Source: Candidatus Sulfobium sp. (lineage in GTDB: Bacteria; Nitrospirota; Thermodesulfovibrionia; Thermodesulfovibrionales; UBA6898). Taken from it: a stretch of DNA of 64,000 nucleotides. Under the pieces are notes generated by a model. That model searched no databases, had not been told where the DNA came from, and saw nothing but the letters and a program-made list of their open reading frames with translations. Both the position numbers and the translations under genes were made by a program. Shown here in pieces: positions 2,405 to 44,254 of the stretch (the stretch's first letter is position 1; each line of letters starts with the position of its first letter). The stretch lies in assembly GCA_037380845.1 (NCBI GenBank), contig JARRRI010000013.1, positions 10,315 to 74,314 on the forward strand, given 5' to 3'.

Positions 2405-2890
2405 GTTGAAATGATGGTGGAGGCGAAGGAGCTATTGAAAGAGAGAGTGGTTTGATATGAGACATGCATTTTGGGGCGGCACAGACCTCTCTCCCGCATC
2501 CTCCGGAACCGCATTTGACTGTCTATTTCCATGAGCATCCCTCGCTTATCGCAGACAGGGAACAATATCAAGTACAGGAAGAACTGTTGCATCCGGCCGT
2601 AAATAGAGCTCTCTGCGGCTTTCGCCCCAGACTATTCAACCCCATTTCGCCACTGTTGTTGCCTTTCTTCTTACCGACTTATCCTGTGGAACACATTGGG
2701 CACAGGTCCCGGATCGTCATTGATGTTCGTTAGCGTTCCGTTCCCGCGTGTCGTTGAGTCTGACGTCACATGACCTGTCGCCGGTGCACGTGATCGAAAG
2801 GAACTGTGTGCTACCGCCACCGCTGTCGATCGCTTGCCGAAGACCGACAAAGGGCTGCCGACCAACTGCATGGCGTTCCTGGGCCATCGG

Positions 2891-3547
2891 TCAGCTTGAG
2901 AGCAATTTTGCAGCACCCTGCAGTATCTTTCTCATAGGTTTGCCCACCGTAACCCAAAGGAATATCTCGTTCCCGATATCTCGATAATCCGCGGACTCAA
3001 TATTGAAACCAATTTTTTCAAGATTAGCGTATAGCTTATCAGGGCTCTTGTGGCTGTAATATAGCTTTTGACCCATAAATTCCTTATAGCCATCAAATTC
3101 AATGCTACCAGTGTATTCTTTCGTTGCATAGGTAAACAACGCTTTGCCTTTTGGGCGAAGCCACTTATAGAATTTGTCAAACAAAGCCTCATGATCATTG
3201 CATGAGACATGAAATAAACTGTAAATTGCTGTGATTGCGTCAAATTGGCTTGGTTCAAATTCAACCTCACGCATGTCAGCGTGAATAGTTCTCATTTCTG
3301 GGACATATTTAGACGCCAATTCAAGCATTCTTTCAGAGAAATCTACACCTGTAACTGTCCAACCACACTCAATAAAAAATCGTGCAAACGGCTCACCTGC
3401 GCCACAGCCCAAATCAAGCAGCCTCCCTTTCTTTACCCCCAATCGCGCATAAAAAGAATTAAAGACTTCCATCATATCAAAAAGTCCCCGATTCTCTTCA
3501 TAGGTTTCAGCAAACTGATCGTAGATTTGTCGAAGTGTGATACCCAC
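2891..3547 (-). CDS. Class I SAM-dependent methyltransferase
   Basis: LDLGCGAG motif I, GVDFSERML, ADM motifs. Confidence 0.9.
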   Translation of the reverse strand: MGITLRQIYDQFAETYEENRGLFDMMEVFNSFYARLGVKKGRLLDLGCGAGEPFARFFIECGWTVTGVDFSERMLELASKYVPEMRTIHADMREVEFEPSQFDAITAIYSLFHVSCNDHEALFDKFYKWLRPKGKALFTYATKEYTGSIEFDGYKEFMGQKLYYSHKSPDKLYANLEKIGFNIESADYRDIGNEIFLWVTVGKPMRKILQGAAKLLSS

Positions 3548-3779
3548 AGCATTACCTTTCAGGTGCCGACAATGTGTACAGATTCCTATTCTTCATTCCC
3601 ATGATCACATATTAGCACAGTCGTGGTATCATGAGAAGGTAAAACTGGCGTGGGAAATATGCAAACATTTCTGAATTCTCGTCAATAATGAAGGGGAGGA
3701 ATATTTGGCAGCGTAATTGTCGTTGATGAAAGCCCTCAAATTAAAGCCTCTATGCCCGGACTGAGTAAAAAAAGTAGTC

Positions 3780-4043
3780 ATGAGTGAAAGGAAGGAGAGG
3801 ATCAAGATGGACAATACCTTCGATAGTACATACGTTATCAGGAAAGAAAAGTATGAAGAGTTTATTGCCGATGCCGAGAAGCTATCGATAGCATCCTATA
3901 CAATTCCAGTCGCTGTTGCACCTGATTTGTACAAACAAATCGATATGAATAAAGACATTGCAATAAAAATCGTCTGGAAGCCTGAAACAACGGTTGCCCA
4001 GATAAAGGAGTTTGATAAGACATGGTTTCTTCTAAAATATTAA
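3780..4043 (+). CDS. Hypothetical protein
   Basis: 87-aa ORF in an AT-richer region, AAGGAG near the second Met; no family recognised. Confidence 0.45.
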   Translation: MSERKERIKMDNTFDSTYVIRKEKYEEFIADAEKLSIASYTIPVAVAPDLYKQIDMNKDIAIKIVWKPETTVAQIKEFDKTWFLLKY

Positions 4044-4256
4044 GACCTGGCGAAGGGGCTTGATATGAGTGATTCGACGAATAGTGGGAGAAAAATAAAG
4101 ACGAGGAAAGTTAAGGTCAAGAGAAACCTGTTCTGCCGGAAGGGCTATATGGCGACAAATGCTCATGAGTCAGATTTTCATTTGTGTTCCCCTTGTTTGC
4201 AATAATAAAGCGGACGAATTATACGGAAGCGGTATTCTTTTAGGAATTATCGGGAA

Positions 4257-5054
4257 ATGCCGAGTACGGTAGTCAACGGCGTTGATCTCTACTACGAATG
4301 TCATGGAAAAGGCAAACCACTGATGCTGATCGCTGGCCTAGCCAGTGACTCCCAGAGCTGGCAGCCGATGGTGAAATCCCTATCTCAGCATCACCTTGTT
4401 ATACTTCCTGATAACAGAGGTGTAGGTAGAACAAAGCCTCAAGATATTGAGACAAGCATTCAGCACATTGCTGACGATTGCATTGCGCTTGTCGGATATT
4501 TGGGGTTGTCATGCGTCACCTTGCTTGGGCATTCTATGGGAGGCTTTGTAGCGCTGGATTGTGCCATCCGTTATCCTGAATATGTTTCCAAAATGATTTT
4601 AGCAGGAACGTCGGCCTTCAATTCTGAAAGGAATAATGCTCTTTTTCATGATTGGGTTTCTTATTTGAGTTCGGGAATGGACTTAGAGCTTTGGTTTAGA
4701 AATGTATTTTACTGGATATTTTCTCGACACCTTTTTGAGAACAATAGAACACTGAATGATACAATGCAATTCGCAATAGAGTATCCCTATCCTCAGAGCG
4801 TCATCGCGTTCGAAAAACAAGTCAAAGCTATCGAGCAATTTAATTGCCAGAAAAGTTTGCCAAGCATTAAACCAAAGACTTTGATAGTTTGCGGGAAAGA
4901 GGATTTGCTATTTCCTCCCGAAGAAAGCATTAAGGTGTTGCAGGCGATCCCGAGAACAAGTATTTCTCTTATCGAGGATGCGGCACATTCTATGCATGTG
5001 GAAAGTCCCAAGGCATTCACGGATTGTGTCTTGCATTTCCTGAGCAACTGCTAA
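4257..5054 (+). CDS. Alpha/beta fold hydrolase
   Basis: DNRGVG, GHSMGG nucleophile elbow, catalytic Asp (GKEDLL) and His (AAHS). Confidence 0.92.
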   Translation: MPSTVVNGVDLYYECHGKGKPLMLIAGLASDSQSWQPMVKSLSQHHLVILPDNRGVGRTKPQDIETSIQHIADDCIALVGYLGLSCVTLLGHSMGGFVALDCAIRYPEYVSKMILAGTSAFNSERNNALFHDWVSYLSSGMDLELWFRNVFYWIFSRHLFENNRTLNDTMQFAIEYPYPQSVIAFEKQVKAIEQFNCQKSLPSIKPKTLIVCGKEDLLFPPEESIKVLQAIPRTSISLIEDAAHSMHVESPKAFTDCVLHFLSNC

Positions 5055-27558: not shown

Positions 27559-29366
<1,808 letters not shown>

Positions 29367-29745: not shown

Positions 29746-30003
29746 CTGGACCTCCGCCTTTCTTTCCGGACTGATCGCCGCCGTACCGCCTCATAATCAA
29801 AGAATAGTCTGTTAAGGGACGCTCTGCAAATATCCGGCCCCGGCAATATCTTAAAACGTTGCCGTTGTAACCTTTCTTTTAATCGCATAAACTTGAATTA
29901 GAAACCGGCAGAAAAAGTCCTGTCCACTGAAAGGACTGTTGGATTCCCGCAACGGAGATGCGCTTGTGTGCCGGCAGGCCGAGAGCCGAAAGGAGGCACC
30001 CCA

Positions 30004-32136
30004 TTGAAGACGCCCCTAAAGATAATAGTCATAATAGCTGTCGTCATACTGGTCGTAGTGGCAGGCCTCACGGTCTTCGTCAAGTCCTACCTGACTGACG
30101 CTCGCGTACGCACCCTGATCACCCGGACAGCCGAGTCCTCTCTCCACCGGAAGGTCTCCCTGGGTGCGATCTCGGTGAGCATCTTCAGAGGCATTTCGGT
30201 TAAGGATTTCGAGATCAAGGAGAAAGATTCTGATTCGGATTTCGTGAAAGCCGATGCCTTCGTGCTGAAATATCAGCTCCTGCCGCTCCTCTCACGGAGA
30301 CTGGTCATCAACCAGTTGGAAATTGAATCGCCCACGATTGTGATCAGGAAGAATTCCGACGGTTCCTACAATTTTTCGGATATGATAAGGCGGAAAGGGG
30401 AGGCCGCTGCAAAGAAGAAAGATACCGGCGGACTGTCGGGCCTTCCGGTCAGCCTGAGCGTACAGTCGCTCCGGATCGACAAGGCCCGGCTGGAATACTC
30501 CGATCCCGTCGGCACGGTAAAGAAGGCCCTGATCGGACTTGACGCCGGTATTGCGATCGAAGGAAGGTCCAGGCAGGTGATCGCTCCCTCCGGAAAGGCA
30601 AGGATGGAGGTCCTTGAGGTGGTGCTGAAAGACCGTCCCGGGCCGATCACTGATATCCCGGTGTCGCTGCAGTACAGCGCCGAGGTGGACCTCGCCGGAA
30701 AAAAAGTGTATATCCTTGACGCTTCGGTAAAGACACTTGGCGTGCCCGCCACGATCAAGGGTACGGTGAATTATGGCGAACCGCTTTCTTATGACCTGGA
30801 GGTGGGCGCGCCTTCGGTGGACCTCGCAGACGTGGAGAAGGGCGCGGCAGTTTTTCTGCCTTCCGGGATCAGGATCAGCGGCGGCTTCTCGATGAAGGTG
30901 TCTGCCGCGCAGAAAGCGGTGAAAGACGCGAAACCGGTCTTCAGCGGCGAGATAAAACTCGACAGGGTCGCGGTACAGGTGAAGAACATGAAACCTGTCT
31001 TCAGCGGAACGGTGACCCTCGCGCCGGAGCAGATCGGTTTCAGGTCAATGAAACTCGTAGCGGGGGACAGTTCGGCGGATATCAGCGGCCGGGTTGCCAA
31101 CTATTCGACCAATCCCGATATCCGCATGGATGTAACGAGCCCCATGCTTAATCTCGACAGCATCATGCTCCCCCAGGGAAAGGGAGAGGCAGATGCTCCT
31201 GGGGGACGACCGGGAAAAGAGGGGAAGGAGCAGAAGGAGTTCGGGCCCCTGAAGACAAAGATTACGGCCGGAGGAGATGTGGCGATCGCCAGGATGCTGT
31301 ATAAAGGCATTACTGTCCGGAACCTGAAGGCGCACTATACATTCCACAACAATATCTTTACCATTGACCCGCTAACGGGCGACACCCTCAGCGGCAGCTT
31401 CAGGGCGCGGAGCGCCGTGGACCTCTCGAAGAAGGGTATGGCTTATACCATGAATGCCGGGACGGACGGTGTCAAGCTCGAGGAGATCACCGCCGCTTTT
31501 GCACCGAAGGCGAAGGGCATTCTTTTCGGGAGTTTGTCGGCCCGCGCCGATATCAGCGGAGCGGGCTCAGCGAGCGAGACAATCAAACGCAATCTGAAGG
31601 GGAAAGGCTCGTTCAGCGTGAAAAACGGCGAGATAAAGAACGCGCCGATAGCTGACGGCCTCCTGGCGCTTCTGGGCCTCCGGAGCCTGAAGGAGATACC
31701 CATCGAGAAGGCTGCCGGCACCTTCAACATATCCGGCGGAGTGATAAACCTGACGAGCGTCATCGCCGGCAAAGACCTCGCCATTGACGAAACCGGGACC
31801 GTCGGGATGGACCAGAGACTCGACATGGGCATCCTGGTCAAGGTCTCTGACAAACTTTCACCAAAACTGCTGGGCCAGTCCGGAATCTCGCAGTTCCTGT
31901 CGGAAGAAAAGGGGTGGACCGAAATTCCCCTGAAACTGACCGGGACCGTCGCCAGGCCGTCCTATGGGGTCGATACAACGGCGATCGGCAAGAGAGCCAC
32001 GAAGAGCATCCAGAAGAAGGTAGAAGAGGAGATCTTCAAGGCGATCTCGGGAGAAAAGAAGAAGGAACAGCAGCCGACGGCCACACCGCAGAAGGGCAGT
32101 TCCCCGGAGGACCTGCTTAAGGGGTTTTTCAAGTAG
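30004..32136 (+). CDS. AsmA family protein
   Basis: N-terminal transmembrane anchor, G.YNFSD motif, beta-rich body; TTG start after GGAGG. Confidence 0.85.
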   Translation: MKTPLKIIVIIAVVILVVVAGLTVFVKSYLTDARVRTLITRTAESSLHRKVSLGAISVSIFRGISVKDFEIKEKDSDSDFVKADAFVLKYQLLPLLSRRLVINQLEIESPTIVIRKNSDGSYNFSDMIRRKGEAAAKKKDTGGLSGLPVSLSVQSLRIDKARLEYSDPVGTVKKALIGLDAGIAIEGRSRQVIAPSGKARMEVLEVVLKDRPGPITDIPVSLQYSAEVDLAGKKVYILDASVKTLGVPATIKGTVNYGEPLSYDLEVGAPSVDLADVEKGAAVFLPSGIRISGGFSMKVSAAQKAVKDAKPVFSGEIKLDRVAVQVKNMKPVFSGTVTLAPEQIGFRSMKLVAGDSSADISGRVANYSTNPDIRMDVTSPMLNLDSIMLPQGKGEADAPGGRPGKEGKEQKEFGPLKTKITAGGDVAIARMLYKGITVRNLKAHYTFHNNIFTIDPLTGDTLSGSFRARSAVDLSKKGMAYTMNAGTDGVKLEEITAAFAPKAKGILFGSLSARADISGAGSASETIKRNLKGKGSFSVKNGEIKNAPIADGLLALLGLRSLKEIPIEKAAGTFNISGGVINLTSVIAGKDLAIDETGTVGMDQRLDMGILVKVSDKLSPKLLGQSGISQFLSEEKGWTEIPLKLTGTVARPSYGVDTTAIGKRATKSIQKKVEEEIFKAISGEKKKEQQPTATPQKGSSPEDLLKGFFK

Positions 32137-32259: not shown

Positions 32260-32274
32260 GGAGGTTTGGCTTCC

Positions 32275-32616
32275 ATGATTTCTCAAGCCGACAAGATAGA
32301 GGTCCTGAAGGTCATTGCCCACCCCTTAAGGATGCGGATACTCGAGGAACTCAGCAAAGGGGTGAAGTGCGTGAGCGACCTGGAAGAGTTTTTCGAAATC
32401 AGGCAGTCCAATATTTCACAACATCTTTCGCTGCTCAGGCGGCATGGTCTTATCGATTTTTACATTGACGGGAGACTCCGTTGTTATTTTCTGAGGGAGC
32501 CCTTCATCCCCGATCTGCTGGAATTGCTGAGGAAAGATTACGAGGAGGACCTGCCTGCCCCGGCCTGCTGTCCCGTAACCAGGAGGGGGAAGTATCCGGG
32601 TGACAGGAGGAATTGA
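32275..32616 (+). CDS. ArsR/SmtB family transcriptional regulator
   Basis: AHPLRMRIL, CVSDL, QSNISQHL helix-turn-helix; C-terminal CC. Confidence 0.93.
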   Translation: MISQADKIEVLKVIAHPLRMRILEELSKGVKCVSDLEEFFEIRQSNISQHLSLLRRHGLIDFYIDGRLRCYFLREPFIPDLLELLRKDYEEDLPAPACCPVTRRGKYPGDRRN

Positions 32617-32671
32617 TAAACCTGTATTTGACAATTCAGGGAGCCGCTGTTCTTCCCCGGGAGGAGGAGAA

Positions 32672-33016
32672 ATGAAGAAAGAAATAGCCTTGTTTTTCTC
32701 TACGACACCATATAGTTTCGAAAACACCCACACCATTATGAGGATCGCCGACGCAGCCCTCAAAAAAGGTCATAAAGTCAGGCTCATCGCGTCGGGAGAC
32801 GGGGTTTTTTCGGTCGTGAAAGGCCAGGTGCCCAAGTCTCTCGCCGCGCTGGAAGACCTTGTCGAAAGGGGTCTCAAGGTGGACATATGAACCGGCTGCA
32901 TGCAGGGTCGCGGTCTTGCGGCTGAAGACTCCATAGAGGGCGGGGAGATGAGTTCCCTGAAAGGTCTCCTGGACGTAATCGGGTCGAAACCGATATTTTT
33001 GAATTTCGGGATATAG
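32672..33016 (+). CDS. DsrE/TusD-family sulfur relay selenoprotein (Sec at TGA 32888-32890; UxxC)
   Basis: PYSFE, GDGV; the frame continues after TGA as U-TGCMQGRGL...FLNFGI to TAG 33014-33016, right before the next RBS; hairpin at 32902-32919. Confidence 0.85.
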
Positions 33017-33022
33017 GAGGAG

Positions 33023-33379
33023 ATGATGGGAGGCATCGGCATTGTCCTTAGAAGATCGCCTTACGGTTCTGTTGAGGCCGCTGAGGCCATAAGACATGCC
33101 CTCGGCGGGATAGGTGAAGGTTTTGACGTAAATCTCATGCTGATGGACGGAGGAGTCGAGGCCGCGCGAAAAAACCAGGACATCTCAGATACCGAATATC
33201 TGAGCGTTGAGGAAGGAATAAGAGACTGCCTGGATATGGGCGTAGCCGTATACGCGGAGAAAATTTCACTTGCAATGGCCGGTCTCTCTCCCGATAGCGC
33301 GGTGGAAGGAGTTGCGGCAGTAGATGAATCGGAGATAGCCGGGATGATTAAAGAGTCGGACACCACGATGATTTTCTAA
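33023..33379 (+). CDS. DsrE/DsrF (TusC-like) family protein
   Basis: RRSPYGS..AAEAIR, DGGV..A...Q, ends TMIF. Confidence 0.85.
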   Translation: MMGGIGIVLRRSPYGSVEAAEAIRHALGGIGEGFDVNLMLMDGGVEAARKNQDISDTEYLSVEEGIRDCLDMGVAVYAEKISLAMAGLSPDSAVEGVAAVDESEIAGMIKESDTTMIF

Positions 33380-33400
33380 TTTAACCAGTTGGGAGGATGT

Positions 33401-33688
33401 ATGGTAGTCCTTATAAAAAGTTCCCCGGACACTCCTGAAGGACAGAGAGGTGTCAGGATCGCGCGGGATATGTCGGCGGATATAGTTCTCCTGCAGAACG
33501 GAGTCTATTTTATTCAGGGGCAGAGGCTGGAAGACCTGGGAATCTATCGCGCGACATATGTGCTCGAGGATGACAGGAGATTGAGGGGACTGAAGCAGGC
33601 TGATGCCGACAAAAACATAAGAGACATCAGCTATGACGGCCTTGTCGACCTTATGGCGGAAAGCGACAAGGTAACAGGATTGTTTTAA
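33401..33688 (+). CDS. DsrH/TusB family protein
   Basis: LLQNGVY, YVLEDD..LRG, ISYDGLVDLM. Confidence 0.85.
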   Translation: MVVLIKSSPDTPEGQRGVRIARDMSADIVLLQNGVYFIQGQRLEDLGIYRATYVLEDDRRLRGLKQADADKNIRDISYDGLVDLMAESDKVTGLF

Positions 33689-33711: not shown

Positions 33712-34899
33712 ATGGCGAAAATACTTGTTTTGGGAGGCTCATTCGGCGGCCTTACCGCCGCGTTTGAACTGAAAAGACTTCTGGGAAAAAAGTCGGAAGT
33801 AACAGTAATGTCCGACGACGACAAATTCGTTTTCGTACCTTCGCTCCCCTGGCTTTCTCTGGGATGGAGAAAAGCCGGGGACATTACCCTGCCGGTAAAG
33901 TCCATTCTGGAGAAGAGGGGCATATCCTTTCTTCATGAAAAGGCAAAAGGTATAGAACCGGACTCATCCAAGGTAGTTACGGAAAAAGGAGAGACACCTT
34001 ACGACTACCTGGTCGTGGCGACCGGTCCCTACCTCGCGTTTGAAGAGGTACCGGGTCTGGGCCCGGAAAGAGGCCATACGGAATGCATCTTTACCCTTGA
34101 CCTGGCGGAGAAGGCGCATAAAGCCTGGGAGAGGTTTCTTGAAGAGCCCGGGCCCTTGGTCACAGGCTCTGTCCAGGGGGCCAGCTGCCTCGGGCCTCCC
34201 TATGAATACGCCTTTGAGGTAGACGGCGTCCTCCGGGAGCGGAAAATCAGGCACAAGGTTCCGATGGTATTCGTTACCTCAGAGCCCTATATCGGGCATT
34301 TCGGCATAGGGGGATTGAGAAATTCAAAGAGGTTGATGGAAGATGAATTCGCAAGGAGAGACATCAAGGTCGTCGCAAACGCGGTCATCGAGGAGTTTAC
34401 GCCGACGGAAGTGAAGCTGAAGGACGGCACGAATATCCCCTTCAAACTTGCCATGTTAGGCCCGGCGTTGAAAGGAGTGCCTGCCGTAGCCGACATCGGA
34501 AACCCGAGGGCCTTTATTCCGGTTGACGGCAAATATCGGCATGCGAAGTACAAAAACATCTTCAGCGTCGGCGTTGCCGTTGCGATGGCGCCTCCTGAAA
34601 AAACGCCCGTGCCGACCGGCGTTCCGAAGACCGGGCATATGACGGTGACGATGGCAAAATCCGCCTCACGGGTCGTCGCCTCCGACATAACGGGCGGTGA
34701 CGTACCTGAAGAAGAACCTTTGGGAGTCAAGTGTCTGATGGATATGGGCAACACAGCGGCGTACATGAGGGCAGATCCCGTTCTTCCGCCCAGGGAAGAG
34801 TCGGTCTTCGAGGAAGGCAGGCGTTTCCGGTGGGCGAAACTCGCATTCGAAAAATATTTCCTGTGGAAGATGAGAAACGGATTGAGTAACCTCCCCTAG
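33712..34899 (+). CDS. sqr: Sulfide:quinone oxidoreductase (FAD-dependent)
   Basis: GGSFGG FAD motif, FVPSLPW, SCLGPPYE, VPKTG, C..DMG, FEKYFL. Confidence 0.88.
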   Translation: MAKILVLGGSFGGLTAAFELKRLLGKKSEVTVMSDDDKFVFVPSLPWLSLGWRKAGDITLPVKSILEKRGISFLHEKAKGIEPDSSKVVTEKGETPYDYLVVATGPYLAFEEVPGLGPERGHTECIFTLDLAEKAHKAWERFLEEPGPLVTGSVQGASCLGPPYEYAFEVDGVLRERKIRHKVPMVFVTSEPYIGHFGIGGLRNSKRLMEDEFARRDIKVVANAVIEEFTPTEVKLKDGTNIPFKLAMLGPALKGVPAVADIGNPRAFIPVDGKYRHAKYKNIFSVGVAVAMAPPEKTPVPTGVPKTGHMTVTMAKSASRVVASDITGGDVPEEEPLGVKCLMDMGNTAAYMRADPVLPPREESVFEEGRRFRWAKLAFEKYFLWKMRNGLSNLP

Positions 34900-35819: not shown

Positions 35820-36293
35820 ATGCTTATGAATGATAAACTCGACGAAATTATAGGAAGATACAGGGAAAAAAAGGGGAATATAATATTCCTCCTGCAGGAA
35901 ACCCAGGCCGCCTTCGGTTTTATACCGAGGGAAGCAGTCAATTTCTTCTCCGAAGAACTCGGCATCGCCCCCAGCCGCTTTTTCGGCATCGCCACGTTTT
36001 ACTCCCAGTTCCGGCTCCACCCCGCCGGGAAAAACAGGATAACCGCCTGCTGCGGGACGGCCTGTCACGTCAAGGGCTCCGAGAAGATAATCAGAAGTCT
36101 GAGGCGTGAGCTCCAGCTGCCCGAGGGGAACGACACAACAGCCGACGGGGAGTTCACACTTGAAGAGGTGGCCTGTCTCGGCACGTGCAGTTTCGCACCG
36201 GTCGTCCTTGTAAACGGAGACGTCCGCGGCAGGGCCAGTGCACAGAAAGTCACGAGGGAGATAGGTTCACTGAGGAAGAAGAATGAGGGATAA
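35820..36293 (+). CDS. NuoE-like [2Fe-2S] subunit of NAD-linked formate dehydrogenase
   Basis: ATFYSQF, CCGTACHVKG, CLGTC. Confidence 0.92.
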   Translation: MLMNDKLDEIIGRYREKKGNIIFLLQETQAAFGFIPREAVNFFSEELGIAPSRFFGIATFYSQFRLHPAGKNRITACCGTACHVKGSEKIIRSLRRELQLPEGNDTTADGEFTLEEVACLGTCSFAPVVLVNGDVRGRASAQKVTREIGSLRKKNEG

Positions 36294-38061
36294 GACGGTG
36301 ATAAGGGTCTGCATGGGCCCGGCGGGCATAGCGGCAGGCGGCAAGGCCGTCCTCGAGGCGTTCAGGAGAGCCTTGTCGGAGGCTTCCGCAGAGGCAGACG
36401 TTGTGGAGAACTGTTCCTCGCACCAGGTGGGTTGCCTGGGACTCTGCGCACGGGACGTGCTGGTTGAGGTCCTGATGAACGGCGTGAAAACAGTCTATCA
36501 GTATGTGAAGCCCAATATTGTGGAGAGGATAGTGAAGGAGCACATCGTCGGGGGTATGCCCGTAGAGGAATGGAAAATCGACGACGCCTATGATTCCTTT
36601 TACGGAAAGCAGGTCAAGGTGGTGCTTCAAGACTGCGGCAGGGTCGATCCGGAGGATATCGAGTCGTACATCGGCATCGGCGGGTATGAGGCGGTCCGCA
36701 GGGTACTTTACGCCTGGACGCCGGACGACGTGATCGGGGAGATAAAGTCTTCGGGCCTGAGGGGCCGCGGCGGCGCCGGATTTCCAACGGGTCTTAAGTG
36801 GGAACTCGGGAGGAGAAGCAGCGGCGATGTCAAGTACATCATCTGCAATGCCGATGAAGGTGACCCCGGCGCCTTCATGGACAGGGCGGTCATAGAAGGG
36901 AACCCCCATTCGGTAATAGAGGGCATGATCATCGGCGCCTACGCCGTAGGGGCCCATAAGGGATACGTCTACATCAGGGCCGAATATCCTCTGGCCGTAG
37001 AGAGGCTGCAGCTCGCGCTGGAGCAGGCGTCCCGGAAAGGCTTTCTGGGAAGCAGCGTCTTCGGCAGCTATTTCGATTTCGACATCGAGATCAAGCTGGG
37101 GGCGGGTGCCTTCGTATGCGGGGAAGAGACGGCTCTCATCGCGTCGATAGAAGGACAGAGAGGCATGCCGAGGTCGAAGCCGCCATTCCCGGTCAACAAG
37201 GGATTATGGCAGAGGCCTACAGTAATCAACAACGTCGAGACCCTGGCAAACATAGCGTCCATCATCAGCCACGGGGCCGGCTGGTACTCCTCTTACGGAA
37301 CGGAGCGCTCCCGGGGGACGAAGGTCTTCGCCCTCACCGGGAAGATAAAGAATACGGGCCTCATAGAGGTCCCGATGGGCATTAGCATGAGGGAGATAAT
37401 CTACGATATAGGCGGAGGCATCGACGGAGACGGGGCGTTGAAGGCGGTGCAGACCGGCGGCCCCTCGGGAGGATGCATACCGGCCGGCATGGCCGACCTC
37501 AGTGTCGACTACGAGTCTCTCTCCAGGGCCGGTTCCATCGTGGGTTCGGGGGGGATGATCGTGCTCGACGAAAACGATTGCATGGTCAACATGGCAAAGT
37601 ATTTCGTACAGTTCACACAGGCCGAATCGTGCGGAAAGTGTGTACCCTGCCGGGTGGGGACGAAGAGGCTGCTTGAGATCCTGGACCGCATCACAAAAGG
37701 GCAGGGGAGGGAGGGCGATATCGAGCGCCTGGAGAGGCTGAGCAGGGGGGTGAAGGTCACTTCGCTCTGCGGGCTCGGCCAGACCGCGCCGAACCCGGTC
37801 CTCAGCAACCTCCGGTATTTCAGGGATGAATTCGAGGCGCATATCAGGGACAGGAAGTGCCCTGCAGGGGTATGCAGGGAACTCCTCACCTATCGCATCG
37901 TGGAAGAATCCTGCACCGGATGCGGCGCATGCCTGAGGGCCTGCCCCGCGGGCGCCATCAGCGGTGAAAAGAAGAAGCCGCACGTCATAGACCCCGACAT
38001 ATGCATCAGGTGCGGGGCCTGTTTCGACGTGTGCAAATTTAAGTCGGTGGAGAAAGATTAG
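36283..38061 (+). CDS. NuoF/HydB-like NAD(H)/FMN-binding subunit
   Basis: GRGGAGFPTG, NADEGDPGAFMDR, CGEETAL, CGKCVPCRVG, C-terminal 2x[4Fe-4S]. Confidence 0.95.
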   Translation: MRDKTVIRVCMGPAGIAAGGKAVLEAFRRALSEASAEADVVENCSSHQVGCLGLCARDVLVEVLMNGVKTVYQYVKPNIVERIVKEHIVGGMPVEEWKIDDAYDSFYGKQVKVVLQDCGRVDPEDIESYIGIGGYEAVRRVLYAWTPDDVIGEIKSSGLRGRGGAGFPTGLKWELGRRSSGDVKYIICNADEGDPGAFMDRAVIEGNPHSVIEGMIIGAYAVGAHKGYVYIRAEYPLAVERLQLALEQASRKGFLGSSVFGSYFDFDIEIKLGAGAFVCGEETALIASIEGQRGMPRSKPPFPVNKGLWQRPTVINNVETLANIASIISHGAGWYSSYGTERSRGTKVFALTGKIKNTGLIEVPMGISMREIIYDIGGGIDGDGALKAVQTGGPSGGCIPAGMADLSVDYESLSRAGSIVGSGGMIVLDENDCMVNMAKYFVQFTQAESCGKCVPCRVGTKRLLEILDRITKGQGREGDIERLERLSRGVKVTSLCGLGQTAPNPVLSNLRYFRDEFEAHIRDRKCPAGVCRELLTYRIVEESCTGCGACLRACPAGAISGEKKKPHVIDPDICIRCGACFDVCKFKSVEKD

Positions 38062-38062
38062 G

Positions 38063-40849
38063 ATGATAAAGCTGAAGATAGACGGAAGGGACGTAGAGGT
38101 CCCTGAAAATACAACGATCCTCCGGGCGGCAAAGATGCTCGATATCCCCGTGCCGACGCTCTGCGCCCATCCGAAGCTCACCCCGTTCGGGGGCTGCAGG
38201 ATGTGCATAGTGGCGATAAAGGACATGCCGAAACCGGTGACGTCCTGCAATACCCTTGCGAGGGAAGGGATGGAGGTATCGACCTCTACCCCGGAAATAG
38301 AAGACCTGAGAAGGCTTATTCTCGAACTTATCCTCTCCGACCATCCCAATGATTGCATGGTCTGTGAGCAGGCCGGCAACTGCACACTGCAGGAGCTTGC
38401 TTACGCCTACGGCATAAGGGAGAACGAGTTTGAAGGGGAGCGGAGGACATACGAGAAGAGGGACGGCAACCACTTCATAGAAAGGGACCTGGAGAAGTGC
38501 ATACTCTGCGGCAGGTGCGTAAAGGTCTGCGACGAGGTCCAGGGAGTGGAGGCCATAGACTTCGGTTACCGCGGCTTCCGGTCGAAAATATGCACCCCCT
38601 ACGAAGACGACCTGGACTGCGAGTTTTGCGGACAATGCATCACGGTCTGTCCGACGGGCGCCCTTACCGGCAAACAGTGGCTTGGGAAGGGAAGGCCGGG
38701 TGAACTGAAAGAGGTGGATACGGTCTGTCCCTACTGCGGCACGGGCTGCAATATCACTGTCCAGACGAAACGCAATGAGATATCCAGGGTTATACCCAGA
38801 GAGAATACGTGGAACGAGGGATGGCTCTGTGTGAAGGGACGGTTCGGCTACAGGTTCGTAAACAGCCCGGACCGGCTTAAAAAACCGCTCATGCGAACCG
38901 CTCCCAAACCAGAAGTCGGAATGCAGAAGTTGGGAGAAGACTCCTCACAGCTTACTCCTGACTCCTCACTTTTCAGGGAAACGTCCTGGGAGGAGGCCCT
39001 TGACCATATCGCGTCGCGTCTGGGCGAGATCAGGGCAGCACACGGCCCTGATGCAATCGCCGGACTCTCCTCCGCCAGGTGCACCAACGAGGAGAACTAC
39101 GCATTCCAGAAATTCATGAGGGCCGCTGTGGGGACCAACAACGTAGACCACTGCGCACGGCTTTGACACTCGCCGACGGTGGCCGGGCTGGCCGCCATAT
39201 TCGGCTCCGGGGCCATGACGAATTCGATCAGGGAGATCGAGGGGATGGATGTCATCTTCATCGTGGGTTCGAATACCAAGGAGACCCACCCTGTCATCGC
39301 AAACAGGATGATAAAGGCGTACCGCAGGGGCGCAAAGATCATAGTCGCCGACCCAAGGAGGGTGCCGATGGTGAAATTCGCCGAGGTATTTCTCAAGATG
39401 AGACCGGGCACCGACGCGGCCCTGCTCAACGGGATTGCCCATGTCATAGTTAAGGAGAATCTCCAGAACGACGAGTTCATAAGGGAAAAAACGGAGGGAT
39501 TTGAGGAGTGGAAAAAGTCCCTGGAAGAGTTTGATCCCGGGAGCGTCGAGGAGATAACAGGGGTGCCGAAGGAGGATATCGTCATGGCCGCGAGAATCTA
39601 CGGCGGCTCGCGGAGGGCCGGCATCTTCTACACCATGGGAATCACCCAGCATACCTGCGGGACCGACAACGTAAAGGCGGTGGCCAACCTGGCGACGCTC
39701 ACGGGGAATATCGGCCGCGAATCTACCGGCGTGAACCCTCTGAGGGGACAGAACAACGTGCAGGGCGCTACGGACGCGGCCTGCGTACCCGACGTTTATC
39801 CCGGCTACCAGAAAGCAGACTCGCCTGAAGTAAGGAAGAAGTTCGAGGAGGCGTGGGGCAGGGCGCTGTCACCTTCCCCCGGCCTGACGGCAACCCAGAT
39901 GATAGACGCCGCTTCTGGCGGCGAAATAAAGGCGATGTACATCATGGGTGAAAACCCGGTCATCACCGACCCTAATATGAATCATACCGTAAAGGCTTTG
40001 GGAAGCCTTGATTTTCTCGTGGTGCAGGACATCTTCATGACCGACACGGCACGTCTTGCGGACGTGGTGCTGCCGGCGGCATGCGCCTTCGAAAAGGACG
40101 GGACCTTTACGAACACCGAGAGAAAGGTGCAGCGGGTGAGACAGGCGGTCCTGCCGCCGGGAGAGGCCCGGGACGACCTGTCGATCATTACCGCACTGTC
40201 GAAGCGACTGGGGTACCCGATGGAATACTCTTCTCCGGAAGAGGTGCTGAGTGAATTCGGCCGGCTCTGGCCCAATCTTGCGGGAATTACGTACCGGCGT
40301 CTTGAAGAAGGGGGGCTTCAGTGGCCGTGCCCCTCCGAAGGGCATCCCGGGACCGGGTTTCTTTACAAAGACGGCTTCCCCAAAGGGAAGGTGCGTTTTG
40401 CACCGGTGGGGTTCTGTCCTCCTGCGGAGATTACGGACGACGAGTATCCTTTTATCCTCACTACCGGAAGAAATCTCTTCCAGTATCATTCCGGCTCTAT
40501 GACCAGGAGGGTCATGTCGATAGAAAGCCACGCCGGCGAGCCCTATGTGGAGGTCAGCGTCCCCGACGGGGAGCGGCTCGGAATAAGACAGGGAGACAAG
40601 GTGCGGGTATCATCCAGACGCGGCGGGATCACGGTCAAGGCCAGGGTCACACCGAGGGTCCCGGAAGGCACGGTCTTCATCCCGATGCATTACCGTGAGG
40701 CCGCCGCCAACTTGATCACCAACGACGCCCTGGACCCGCACGTAAAGATACCGGAATTCAAGGTATGTGCGGTCAGGGTGGAACCGGTCGAAGAAGAAAG
40801 CTCTGAAAATCCTCCCCGGCTGGAGGCTTCGGGAATCCCTGAAAACTGA
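38063..40849 (+). CDS. fdhA: Formate dehydrogenase alpha subunit, selenocysteine-containing (Sec at TGA 39164-39166), with N-terminal Fe-S domains
   Basis: ORFs 38063..39166 and 39179..40849 are in frame and join as DHCARL-U-HSPTVAGL; SECIS-like GGTGGCC-GGGCT-GGCCGCC (39178-39196); RGQNNVQG, PEFKVCAV. Confidence 0.96.
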
Positions 40850-43480: not shown

Positions 43481-44254
43481 ATGAATGCATTCGACACTAT
43501 AAAGATATTGAGAATTAGAGACAGTTCGGCGGAGGAGATAGAGGATGTCGTTGCGGTTGAGAAAAAGGTGAGGATATCAGTGAACGGCAGGCACGCCCTC
43601 AGCCTCTACTGCACGCCCCTGATGGTCCGTGAGTTCGTAGTGGGGGTCATCCATAACGAGGGACTTATAAACGGCGAATGGTGTGCGGAAAGGGTCAGCA
43701 TAGAGTACGACGATGATATTATGGTGGACGTGCCTTCGTCGGGCCGGCTTAGCGAGGGTGAGAGGATCATCACCTCCGGCTGCGCCGGGGGCGTGAGCAT
43801 GGGGGCCGAACCTCCGGGCATTATATCGGATAATACCACCTTTGAAGCCGAAATCGTCAGGAATACCTTTGGGGAGTTCCAGAAGAAATCGGAAGGATAC
43901 AGGGCAACGGGCGGCGTTCACAGCGCGGCCCTGACGGACGGCTTACACATCCTGGCCTTTGCCGAGGACATCGGCAGACATAACGCAGTGGATAAGGTTA
44001 TAGGGTATTGCCTCCTCGAAAATATTCCCTTCCGGGGAAAGATCATGCTTGCCAGCGGAAGGCTGTCTTCGGAGATCGTATCGAAGTGTGCCCGCTGCCG
44101 GATACCCGTGATCGTCAGCAGGGCAGCGCCCACCAGCCTTGCCGTAAAAATAGCGGAATCGTCGGGTTTGACGCTGATCGGTTTCGTGCGCGGCAACAGG
44201 ATGAATGTGTACGCCGGCAAGCATAGGATTATCCTGCCCAAAAACGGCAGTTAA
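43481..44254 (+). CDS. fdhD: Formate dehydrogenase accessory sulfurtransferase FdhD
   Basis: TSGC, TGGVHSAAL, EDIGRHNAVDK, SGRLSSE, APTSLA. Confidence 0.95.
   Translation: MNAFDTIKILRIRDSSAEEIEDVVAVEKKVRISVNGRHALSLYCTPLMVREFVVGVIHNEGLINGEWCAERVSIEYDDDIMVDVPSSGRLSEGERIITSGCAGGVSMGAEPPGIISDNTTFEAEIVRNTFGEFQKKSEGYRATGGVHSAALTDGLHILAFAEDIGRHNAVDKVIGYCLLENIPFRGKIMLASGRLSSEIVSKCARCRIPVIVSRAAPTSLAVKIAESSGLTLIGFVRGNRMNVYAGKHRIILPKNGS

What the first reader, a model, noticed from the sequence alone, without database searches (positions are those of the whole stretch)
32672..33016. Hidden selenoprotein DsrE (UxxC) missed by the ORF caller
Seen: TGA 32888-32890 falls where DsrE proteins carry the Cys of Cxx(C/A)xxxRG. 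The frame continues 41 sense codons to a TAG adjoining the next RBS, giving a typical 114-aa DsrE. A hairpin GCAGGGT-CGCG-GTCTTGC starts 11 nt after the UGA. Known: DsrE-like selenoproteins have been predicted computationally; their function is poorly understood.
Basis: partly seen in the sequence, partly recalled or inferred. Interest (0 to 1): 0.8.

Follow-up and report, generated by a model that had tools for sequence, protein, structure and literature searches.

The report
Selenocysteine DsrE gene cut short
The "stop" codon inside this small sulfur-carrier gene almost certainly encodes selenocysteine at the active site, a correct catch of a selenoprotein family that is already catalogued but that gene callers still cut to a 72-residue stub.

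Summary
TGA 32888-32890 is codon 73 of an ATG-to-TAG frame (32672-33016, 114 aa) that matches Pfam DsrE across the TGA.

Evidence that the TGA is read as selenocysteine:
- All 110 related loci read codon by codon (30 and 80) keep exactly one in-frame TGA at this column.
- The 41 codons after it are under purifying selection (pN/pS 0.20).
- 119 of 129 full-length distant homologues have Cys there.
- The column aligns with the persulfide-carrying Cys78 of TusD (PMC3397948).
- A conserved, covarying hairpin with a GGUCUU loop lies at 32907-32922, where synonymous sites are frozen.
- The genome has selA, selB, selD and tRNA-Sec.
- TGA is otherwise its commonest stop.

The gene heads a conserved operon: ArsR-type regulator, DsrE(Sec), DsrF-like, DsrH-like, often an SQR-like flavoprotein.

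DsrE-like UxxC selenoproteins have been catalogued since 2004-2005, and this scan has met them before on other DNA. This is a new, mis-annotated member of a known kind. It probably explains a published report that Thermodesulfovibrionia have dsrFH but no dsrE.

The parts
32266..32616 (+). ArsR/SmtB-family HTH regulator gene (116 aa from the TTG listed; Cys34, Cys72, Cys100-Cys101)
   Evidence: Pfam HTH_5 E 3.5e-12. NCBIfam HTH_metalloreg scores 72 bits, over its cut-off. BigR (40.9 bits, cut-off 155) and TsoR (29.3 bits, cut-off 115) are below theirs. A homologue lies upstream on the same strand within 400 nt in 53 of 73 related loci with room.
32660..32669 (+). Shine-Dalgarno-like GGAGGAGGAG ahead of ATG 32672
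   Evidence: Read directly from the sequence.
32672..33016 (+). DsrE-family selenoprotein gene, 114 codons plus TAG, read through TGA at codon 73
   Evidence: Translation. Pfam DsrE over residues 3-104, E 3.2e-15. Full-length matches with exactly one TGA in relatives. Predicted fold is closest to YchN, DsrE and TusD, TM 0.80-0.81.
32888..32890 (+). TGA read as selenocysteine (U73), at the column of TusD/DsrE Cys78
   Evidence: TGA in 110 of 110 loci. Cys in 119 of 129 full-length representatives. Aligns with TusD Cys78, although the profile score is weak, E 0.019. The same letters are seen in an independent contig.
32897..32899 (+). TGC, Cys76, second residue of the UxxC motif
   Evidence: Invariant in alignment A1. 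Cys in 98 of 129 representatives.
32907..32922 (+). Conserved SECIS-type hairpin: stem GTCGC/GCGGC, apical loop GGTCTT (32912-32917), loop starting 21 nt after the UGA
   Evidence: RNAalifold consensus with 3 of 5 pairs showing compensatory changes. 88.3% of cells pair against 37-54% when slid; covariation 0.297 against 0.123, with 0 of 500 shuffles as high. Third-position variability is 0-0.09 at codons 79-83 against 0.5-0.7 in flanking four-fold codons. G-U at loop positions 2-3 is invariant in 30 of 30 sequences.
33023..33379 (+). DsrF/TusC-like gene (118 aa), no Cys at the active-site column, invariant Cys69
   Evidence: Pfam DsrE E 4.8e-12. TIGR03010 scores 28.8 bits, below its 94-bit cut-off. 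A homologue lies directly downstream in 74 of 76 loci with room. Invariant columns from alignment A3.
33389..33688 (+). DsrH/TusB-like gene (99 aa from TTG; no Cys after Met5)
   Evidence: Pfam DsrH E 2.6e-9. TIGR03011 scores 41.7 bits, below its 49.2-bit cut-off. Present in 74 of 76 loci with room. Sequence read.
33712..34899 (+). SQR-like FAD-dependent pyridine nucleotide-disulfide oxidoreductase (395 aa; Cys159, Cys341; no internal TGA)
   Evidence: Pfam Pyr_redox_2 E 7.2e-15. Best NCBIfam hit is type III sulfide:quinone reductase, 100.6 bits, far below its 525-bit cut-off. Translation. A homologue of at least 50% identity follows DsrH in 41 of 68 loci with room.

Best explanation
Window 32672-33016 is one gene for a 114-residue DsrE/YchN-fold protein whose active-site residue is selenocysteine.

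How the UGA is read (inferred from the parts present): at codon 73, SelB carrying Sec-tRNA(Sec) is recruited by a short hairpin 16 nt downstream (stem 32907-32911 / 32918-32922, loop GGUCUU). Sec is inserted instead of terminating, and translation runs on 41 codons to TAG.

What the protein does (inferred): Sec73 sits where TusD and DsrE carry the persulfide-binding Cys78, at the end of a strand and the start of a helix. Cys76 lies three residues on, giving a UxxC motif. The protein is made together with DsrF-like and DsrH-like subunits. By analogy with TusBCD and DsrEFH it probably forms a hetero-oligomer in which Sec73 takes up sulfane sulfur as a selenenyl-sulfide or persulfide-type adduct. 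That sulfur is then passed on, or resolved by Cys76.

The frequent SQR-like flavoprotein downstream and the ArsR-type, Cys-bearing regulator upstream point to handling of sulfide, polysulfide or persulfide sulfur in this Dsr-carrying Thermodesulfovibrionia-type bacterium.

Shown here: the gene structure, the conservation of the TGA, the Sec/Cys pairing, the constrained RNA hairpin, the Sec machinery and the operon.

Inferred: Sec insertion itself, the complex, the substrate and the direction of transfer.
For: - Frame and motif. Pfam DsrE spans the TGA.
- TGA conservation across the class: of 151 genomes searched, every listed match to this protein that spans codon 73 and scores E below 1e-17 carries exactly one TGA, at 39-99% identity.
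- Read codon by codon, 30 of 30 loci and 80 of 80 loci have U at the same column, in the motifs VDI-U-TGC or V(D/Y)L-U-GGC.
- Selection (69 sequences of 114 aa): pN/pS is 0.145 before the TGA and 0.20 after it. Third-position variability after it is 0.372, against 0.117 and 0.058 at positions 1 and 2. The other two frames carry stops in 69 and 65 of 69 sequences.
- Sec/Cys pairing: 119 of 129 full-length representatives have Cys at column 73, 98 of 129 have Cys at 76, and 118 of 129 have Arg at 80. Cys forms are labelled Chloroflexota and Mesotoga.
- Active site: U73 aligns with TusD Cys78. DsrE-Cys78 and TusD-Cys78 are the experimentally shown persulfide sites (PMC3397948, abstract and passages).
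- Fold: the model has pLDDT 79.8 and U73 at the strand-helix junction. Best PDB matches are YchN 1jx7 (TM 0.81), DsrE 2hy5_A (0.80) and TusD 2d1p_A (0.80).
- SECIS.
- Machinery: selA and selB are adjacent on C22, selD itself carries a TGA, and tRNA-Sec is on C31.
- Positive control in the same window: a formate dehydrogenase gene with TGA in the motif HCARLUHSPTV.
- TGA ends 675 of 1376 long ORFs in this genome, so the code is standard.
- Operon conservation. A second Sec-DsrE, DsrF, DsrH operon lies in the same genome.
Against: - No direct evidence of selenium incorporation or of a full-length product. No RNA run was listed.
- The single-sequence fold energy is not better than shuffles.
- No Rfam family matched. 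I cannot say from any call whether Rfam holds a model for this kind of bacterial element.
- The profile alignment to TusD is statistically weak (E 0.019, probability 2.4%). PDB sequence-profile hits are only YchN at E 2.9e-7 and DsrE at 0.0025.
- The three subunits score far below the NCBIfam TusBCD/DsrEFH equivalog cut-offs.
- The DsrH-like protein has no Cys matching the DsrH-Cys20 that is essential in A. vinosum (PMC3397948).
- The operon is not linked to dsrAB or dsrC, which lie on other contigs. A DsrC-directed role is therefore unsupported.
- The SQR-like gene is present in only 41 of 68 loci.
- SelA is found in 144 of 151 genomes of the class, so its co-occurrence with the gene does not discriminate.
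Confidence: 0.92

Rival explanations
1. The protein is a real selenoprotein, but its job is selenium handling rather than sulfur relay: trafficking, delivery to SelD, or detoxification. The UxxC site would bind selenide or selenopersulfide.
For: - A DsrE-like domain with a CGxC motif occurs in YedF, whose distribution follows SelD and which has been proposed to act in Se-related redox processes (PMC5322559, passages).
- The paralogue clade carries U-G-G-C, which fits CGxC.
- The regulator has weak similarity to TsoR, a regulator NCBI names for a selenoprotein neighbourhood (29.3 bits, below the cut-off).
Against: - Here selD lies on another contig (C20) and no TusA/SirA domain is fused.
- The neighbours are DsrF-like, DsrH-like and an SQR-like flavoprotein, which are sulfur-type partners.
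- The clade in the window has U-T-G-C, not CGxC.
- A paper search for TsoR with selenoprotein gave nothing relevant.
Confidence: 0.2
2. The TGA is an ordinary stop. The product is the 72-residue stub that databases list, and the downstream 41 codons are untranslated or a remnant.
For: - Gene callers give 72-aa proteins for nearly all of the 120 listed close homologues.
- No protein of 62-200 aa in the collection shares words with residues 62-114.
- TGA is the commonest stop in this genome.
Against: - A remnant would not keep an open frame with pN/pS 0.20 over 41 codons in 69 sequences, with stops in both other frames.
- It would not keep the same end point next to the following gene's ribosome site.
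- It would not keep the RG, SLKGL and FLNFG motifs shared with full-length Cys homologues.
- The stub would lack the active-site helix and two strands of the DsrE fold.
Confidence: 0.04
3. The TGA is read through by something other than Sec insertion: a near-cognate Trp or Cys tRNA, or a reassigned codon.
For: Nothing specific. Read-through as Cys would also give a functional CxxC protein.
Against: - TGA terminates 675 of 1376 long ORFs.
- The full Sec machinery is present.
- A constrained hairpin with G-U in the loop sits at the distance expected for SelB recruitment.
- The codon occupies a redox Cys column, as in other selenoproteins.
Confidence: 0.03

Closest known systems
'DsrE-like protein' prokaryotic selenoprotein family (PF02635, UxxC). 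Sources: Zhang, Fomenko & Gladyshev 2005 (PMC1088965); Zhang et al. 2006 (PMC1794560, Desulfovibrio vulgaris); reviews PMC9312934 and PMC13188914, which credit Kryukov & Gladyshev 2004
   Same: Same Pfam family, same UxxC motif with Sec as the first residue, Cys-containing homologues, a SECIS-type hairpin with G in the apical loop, and unknown function.
   Different: I could not fetch the reference sequence (WP_014524487.1 is named only in the reviews' tables). Whether the Desulfovibrio or marine members belong to the same subclade or sit in an E-F-H operon is untested. The passages and tables I saw do not mention a DsrF/DsrH operon, an SQR-like neighbour or Nitrospirota. Kryukov & Gladyshev 2004 was not held.
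DsrEFH of Allochromatium vinosum and TusBCD of Escherichia coli (sulfur-relay heterohexamers; PDB 2hy5, 2d1p)
   Same: Three consecutive genes of the same three folds, in E-F-H order. The reactive residue is only in the E/TusD-type subunit, at the Cys78 column. Predicted fold TM is 0.80 to DsrE and TusD.
   Different: - Sec instead of Cys, plus a second Cys three residues on (UxxC). TusD has Ala there.
- Scores are far below the NCBIfam equivalog cut-offs.
- No DsrH-Cys20 equivalent.
- Not next to dsrAB or dsrC.
- The host carries Dsr genes but belongs to a group usually read as sulfate reducers or disproportionators.
YchN of E. coli (PDB 1jx7), a DsrE-family protein of unknown function
   Same: Best sequence-profile hit (E 2.9e-7) and best structural hit (TM 0.81, 27% identity). 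Similar length.
   Different: The YchN structure entry is a single protein (one sequence, 6 chains). Here the gene sits in a three-gene E-F-H operon and carries Sec.
YedF (TusA/SirA domain plus DsrE-like domain with a CGxC motif), linked to selenium use (PMC5322559)
   Same: DsrE-like domain with a CxxC-type motif at the same kind of site, and a link with the Sec trait.
   Different: YedF is a two-domain Cys protein. This is a single-domain Sec protein with F and H partners, and no TusA fusion.

Membership tests
Bacterial selenoprotein (UGA recoded by SelB/SECIS) | In-frame UGA conserved among orthologues, with a conserved open frame after it | tested here: met
   110 of 110 loci have one TGA at the column. 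pN/pS after it is 0.20.
Bacterial selenoprotein (UGA recoded by SelB/SECIS) | Homologues with Cys at the Sec position | tested here: met
   119 of 129 full-length representatives have Cys. Examples.
Bacterial selenoprotein (UGA recoded by SelB/SECIS) | Stem-loop shortly after the UGA with a small apical loop containing G (feature as stated in PMC1088965) | tested here: met
   Hairpin at 32907-32922 with loop GGUCUU. Covariation and frozen synonymous sites. Its energy alone is not above shuffles.
Bacterial selenoprotein (UGA recoded by SelB/SECIS) | selA, selB, selC and selD in the genome | tested here: met
   All are over the curated cut-offs. tRNA-SeC (tca) was found by ARAGORN.
Bacterial selenoprotein (UGA recoded by SelB/SECIS) | Selenium shown in the protein | not testable with these tools
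   Needs 75Se labelling or mass spectrometry.
DsrE-like selenoprotein family (PF02635, UxxC) | Match to Pfam PF02635 over the gathering score | tested here: met
   56.8 bits against a cut-off of 22.7, residues 3-104.
DsrE-like selenoprotein family (PF02635, UxxC) | UxxC motif | tested here: met
   U73-T-G-C76. UTGC or UGGC in all but one of the 110 loci read; the exception has UMGC.
DsrE-like selenoprotein family (PF02635, UxxC) | Orthology to the published reference members (D. vulgaris, Sargasso Sea) | not tested
   The reference sequences could not be fetched with the scans left. Only the motif and the Pfam family are shared.
DsrEFH / TusBCD sulfur-relay complex | Reactive residue at the DsrE/TusD Cys78 position | tested here: met
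   U73 aligns with TusD C78 (weak score). The role of Cys78 is taken from PMC3397948.
DsrEFH / TusBCD sulfur-relay complex | Adjacent E-, F- and H-type genes | tested here: met
   F and H are each present in 74 of 76 related loci with room.
DsrEFH / TusBCD sulfur-relay complex | Scores over the NCBIfam equivalog cut-offs (TIGR03012, TIGR03010, TIGR03011) | tested here: not met
   16.4 against 89.25, 28.8 against 94.15, and 41.7 against 49.2 bits.
DsrEFH / TusBCD sulfur-relay complex | Conserved Cys in DsrH (Cys20 in A. vinosum) | tested here: not met
   The only Cys of the DsrH-like ORF is residue 4, before Met5. I made no residue-level alignment to A. vinosum DsrH.
DsrEFH / TusBCD sulfur-relay complex | Genomic link to dsrAB/dsrC, or to tusE/mnmA | tested here: not met
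   dsrA/B and dsrC lie on C51 and C2; the operon is on C13. tusE and mnmA were not searched.
DsrEFH / TusBCD sulfur-relay complex | alpha2-beta2-gamma2 heterohexamer | not testable with these tools
Needs co-purification.

The most novel reading that the evidence does not exclude
The Sec-containing E subunit completes a DsrEFH-type sulfur relay that is nearly universal in Dsr-carrying Thermodesulfovibrionia, often in two paralogous copies per genome. It has been scored as 'dsrFH without dsrE'.

If this selenium-based relay feeds or drains sulfane sulfur between an SQR-like flavoprotein, TusA-type carriers and DsrC, then DsrEFH would not be a marker of sulfur oxidisers only. Selenium availability would also gate sulfur disproportionation or reversible Dsr metabolism in these groundwater and sediment bacteria.
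Probability: 0.2. Interest if true: 0.6.

Novelty: new member of a known kind. Interest (0 to 1): 0.35.

Why it matters
For annotation: every close homologue in the 5.8-billion-protein collection is listed as a stub of about 72 aa, and none carries the C-terminal third. The active site of this protein is therefore absent from databases for a whole bacterial class.

For ecology: metabolic surveys use dsrEFH as a marker of sulfur oxidation. One such survey states that most Thermodesulfovibrionia 'possess dsrFH, but no dsrE' (PMC11033732, passage). The truncation at the Sec codon is the likely reason, so such inferences need a Sec-aware gene call.

For biochemistry: it offers a natural Sec-for-Cys replacement at a persulfide-carrier site, with Cys-type relatives for comparison.

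It does not open a new kind of system. The family has been catalogued since 2004-2005, and the scan has reported it before on other genomes.

Tried and rejected
- Rfam scan of 32500-33200 at E up to 10 gave only three chance microRNA or lncRNA hits.
- Single-sequence folding gave no energy signal.
- PDB sequence searches were topped by designer pentatricopeptide repeat proteins. These are repeat-driven chance matches to residues 22-75 and were set aside. YchN and DsrE were the only real hits.
- Searching the protein collection with residues 62-114 found no candidate.
- The SQR-like gene was read with TGA=U to see whether it too is a selenoprotein. It has no internal TGA and does not end at a TGA.
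- SelA across the class (144 of 151 genomes) does not discriminate carriers from non-carriers.
- The genome-contig scan returned only the 80 best loci, all of the window's own clade (79 Nitrospirota-type labels, 1 Chloroflexota label). It therefore said nothing about Desulfovibrio or other phyla.
- Complex prediction of the E and F subunits did not run. No verdict.
- Sequencing runs: no RNA holder was listed. Only contigs were laid, so they say nothing on expression.
- A paper search for TsoR with selenoprotein gave nothing relevant.
- Kryukov & Gladyshev 2004 (PMC1299047) is not held.
- Supplements of the cited papers were not opened. They may list DsrE-like selenoproteins by taxon.

Full report
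**Observation.**
- ATG 32672 follows a GGAGGAGGAG box.
- TGA 32888-32890 is codon 73.
- 41 sense codons then run to TAG 33014-33016, which overlaps the ribosome-binding box of the next gene (ATG 33023).
- Read through, the product is 114 aa with U73-T-G-C76-M-Q-G-R80-G81.
- Pfam DsrE (PF02635) matches residues 3-104, across the TGA, at E 3.2e-15.
- By table 11 the ORF list shows only a 96-aa frame ending at 32890.

**Is the TGA real and conserved?**
- A contig from a run not marked as a possible source covers 32648-32899 without a difference.
- The protein collection returned 266 homologues. Nearly all of the 120 listed are exactly 72 aa, which is the length up to the TGA. They are 76-97% identical and are named DsrE/TusD-family proteins of Nitrospirota, Dissulfurispiraceae or Candidatus Sulfobium.
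- A search with residues 62-114 found no candidate at all, so the full-length form is not annotated anywhere in that collection.
- In 151 genomes of the same class, 123 had a match. Every listed match that spans codon 73 at E below 1e-17 carries exactly one TGA, at 39-99% identity. Weaker matches without a stop cover residues 18-100 at 30-43% identity and are other DsrE-family members, DsrF-like genes among them (such a second match follows the Sec gene in L036).
- Codon-by-codon reading gave U at the same column in 30 of 30 loci and in 80 of 80 further loci from named MAGs.
- There are two clades. The window's clade has KVDI-U-TGCM..RGL. A paralogous clade has KV(D/Y)L-U-GGC..FR. The window's genome has both.

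**Is the downstream part coding?** The test used 69 ungapped 114-aa sequences.
- pN/pS is 0.145 for codons 1-72 and 0.20 for codons 74-114.
- Variability by codon position after the TGA is 0.117, 0.058 and 0.372.
- The two other frames hold stops in 69 and 65 of the 69 sequences.
- 74 of the 80 genes end at TAG or TAA, 5 at TGA, and one runs off its contig.

**Sec/Cys pairing.** A profile of 21 read-through sequences was searched against 1.84 billion representatives and gave 375 hits at E up to 0.001. Of the best 150, 129 are 100-150 aa long. Among these 129:
- 119 have Cys at the U73 column.
- 98 have Cys at column 76.
- 118 have Arg at column 80.
- 112 have Gly at column 81.

The ten without Cys at column 73 are poorly aligned or divergent there. 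Named Cys forms come from Chloroflexota and Mesotoga.

**Active site and fold.**
- A profile alignment to E. coli TusD puts U73 on TusD Cys78. The score is weak (E 0.019).
- DsrE-Cys78 and TusD-Cys78 are the residues shown to carry the persulfide (PMC3397948, abstract and passages).
- The AlphaFold model (pLDDT 79.8, pTM 0.74) places residue 73 at the end of strand 69-73 and the start of helix 74-79.
- Its best PDB matches are YchN 1jx7 (TM 0.81), DsrE 2hy5_A (0.80) and TusD 2d1p_A (0.80).

**The recoding signal.** The conserved element is a 5-6 bp stem, 32907-32911 with 32918-32922, closing a six-base loop.
- RNAalifold finds it, and 3 of its 5 pairs show compensatory changes, for example C-G to U-A or A-U.
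- 88.3% of cells pair, against 37-54% when slid. The covariation score is 0.297 against 0.123 for shuffles, with 0 of 500 shuffles as high. That shuffle control does not keep relatedness, so the figure is not a probability. The slid control does keep it.
- The strongest signal is at synonymous sites. Codons 79-83 (xxC CGC GGT CTT GCG) have third-position variability of 0-0.09. Gly81 is GGT in 68 of 69 sequences. Gly67 and Gly91 use all four codons, with variability 0.64 and 0.52.
- The loop reads GGUCUU in the window's clade and NGUNNN in the other clade, with G-U invariant.
- I recall that G-U in a GGUC loop is the SelB contact in the E. coli fdhF element. That comes from memory, not from a call.
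- Energy alone is unremarkable, and Rfam has no match.

**Machinery and code.**
- selA and selB lie side by side on contig 22.
- selD carries one in-frame TGA of its own.
- tRNA-SeC (anticodon tca) is on contig 31.
- TGA ends 675 of 1376 ATG-ORFs of 300 aa or more, so it is the ordinary stop.
- In the same window, a formate dehydrogenase alpha-type gene is split by TGA 39164-39166 within HCARLUHSPTV.
- SelA is found in 144 of 151 genomes of the class. That is compatible with the reading but not discriminating.

**Context.** The gene is followed by:
- a DsrF/TusC-like gene (33023-33379);
- a DsrH/TusB-like gene (33389-33688);
- an SQR-like flavoprotein (33712-34899), whose best NCBIfam hit is a type III sulfide:quinone reductase at 100.6 bits, far under the 525-bit cut-off.

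It is preceded by an ArsR/SmtB regulator (32266-32616).

Among the 80 related loci:
- DsrF-like follows in 74 of 76 with room.
- DsrH-like follows in 74 of 76.
- The SQR-like gene follows in 41 of 68.
- The regulator lies upstream in 53 of 73.

The regulator has Cys34 and Cys100/101. I recall a similar spacing for the persulfide-sensing BigR and SqrR, but the BigR model scores only 40.9 bits against a 155-bit cut-off. This is a lead only.

The paralogous operon on contig 10 has the same E(U)-F-H order, followed by an MMPL-type transporter.

The genome carries dsrAB and dsrC on other contigs and eight TusA-family genes.

**Mechanism proposed.**
- Shown: one gene, a conserved Sec codon at the carrier-Cys column, a constrained hairpin, the machinery, and a conserved E-F-H operon.
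- Inferred: SelB-dependent insertion of Sec. A TusBCD-like hetero-oligomer. Uptake of sulfane sulfur on Sec73, with Cys76 as a partner. A link with sulfide or polysulfide chemistry through the SQR-like enzyme.
- Membership in DsrEFH proper is not claimed. The equivalog cut-offs are missed, the DsrH cysteine is absent, and there is no link to dsrAB or dsrC.

**What is known.**
- 'DsrE-like protein', PF02635, UxxC, is listed among prokaryotic selenoprotein families in PMC1088965 (tables and figure legends seen), PMC1794560 (tables seen; D. vulgaris), PMC9312934 and PMC13188914 (tables seen).
- PMC13188914 credits the family to Kryukov & Gladyshev 2004, which I could not read, and says that the functions of nearly all these bioinformatically identified selenoproteins, DsrE-like among them, remain largely uncharacterised.
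- A search for DsrE, selenocysteine and Nitrospir* found only those two reviews. In the passages I saw they do not connect the family with DsrF/DsrH operons or with this class.
- PMC11033732 reports that most Thermodesulfovibrionia 'possess dsrFH, but no dsrE' (passage). The truncation shown here is the probable cause.
- PMC10591310 treats DsrEFH as typical of sulfur oxidisers (passages).
- This scan has already filed 24 notes with the same words on other genomes, including the same reading and the same link to the dsrE report. I reached these points from my own calls before reading those notes.

**Verdict.** The finding is real and correctly interpreted. It is a mis-annotated member of a known selenoprotein family, with a well-defined SECIS element and a conserved E-F-H operon. 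It is useful for annotation and for sulfur-cycle surveys, and of modest novelty.

Noticed in passing
window 38063-40849 (+), TGA at 39164-39166: A formate dehydrogenase alpha-type gene (NuoG-like Fe-S N-terminus plus molybdopterin domains) is split into two ORFs by an in-frame TGA inside HCARLUHSPTV, the usual FdhA Sec site. A 7-bp hairpin with a 5-nt loop follows at 39178-39196. NuoE/NuoF-like genes (35820-38061) precede it, and FdhD lies at 43481-44254.
   Followed up: partly
G000 contig 10; L126:5345-5701 (-), with L126:4982-5335 (-), 4673-4960 (-), 2557-4284 (-): A second Sec-DsrE gene in the same genome (118 aa, U77, motif U-G-G-C, 50% identical to the window's). It is also followed by DsrF-like and DsrH-like genes, then an MMPL/RND-type transporter. 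This paralogous clade is widespread in the class.
   Followed up: partly
G000 contig 20: 72213-73058 (L009/L011): selD itself carries one in-frame TGA, so selenophosphate synthetase is probably a selenoprotein here.
   Followed up: no
window 32266-32616 (+): The ArsR-type regulator has Cys34 and a C-terminal Cys100-Cys101 pair. The spacing recalls persulfide-sensing BigR/SqrR (recalled, not tested), but the BigR model scores below its cut-off.
   Followed up: no
window 33023-33379 (+), residue 69: The DsrF-like subunit has an invariant Cys69 (14 of 14 sequences aligned) in the helix before the strand that would carry the active site. Its role is unknown.
   Followed up: no
L122 (genome contigs locus): One of the 80 close relatives (79% identical) sits in a MAG labelled Chloroflexota, on a contig that ends inside the gene. 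This may be mis-binning or transfer.
   Followed up: no
window 27559-29366 (+): An ammonium transporter gene followed by a P-II regulator gene, an ordinary pair upstream of the AsmA-family gene 29968-32136.
   Followed up: no
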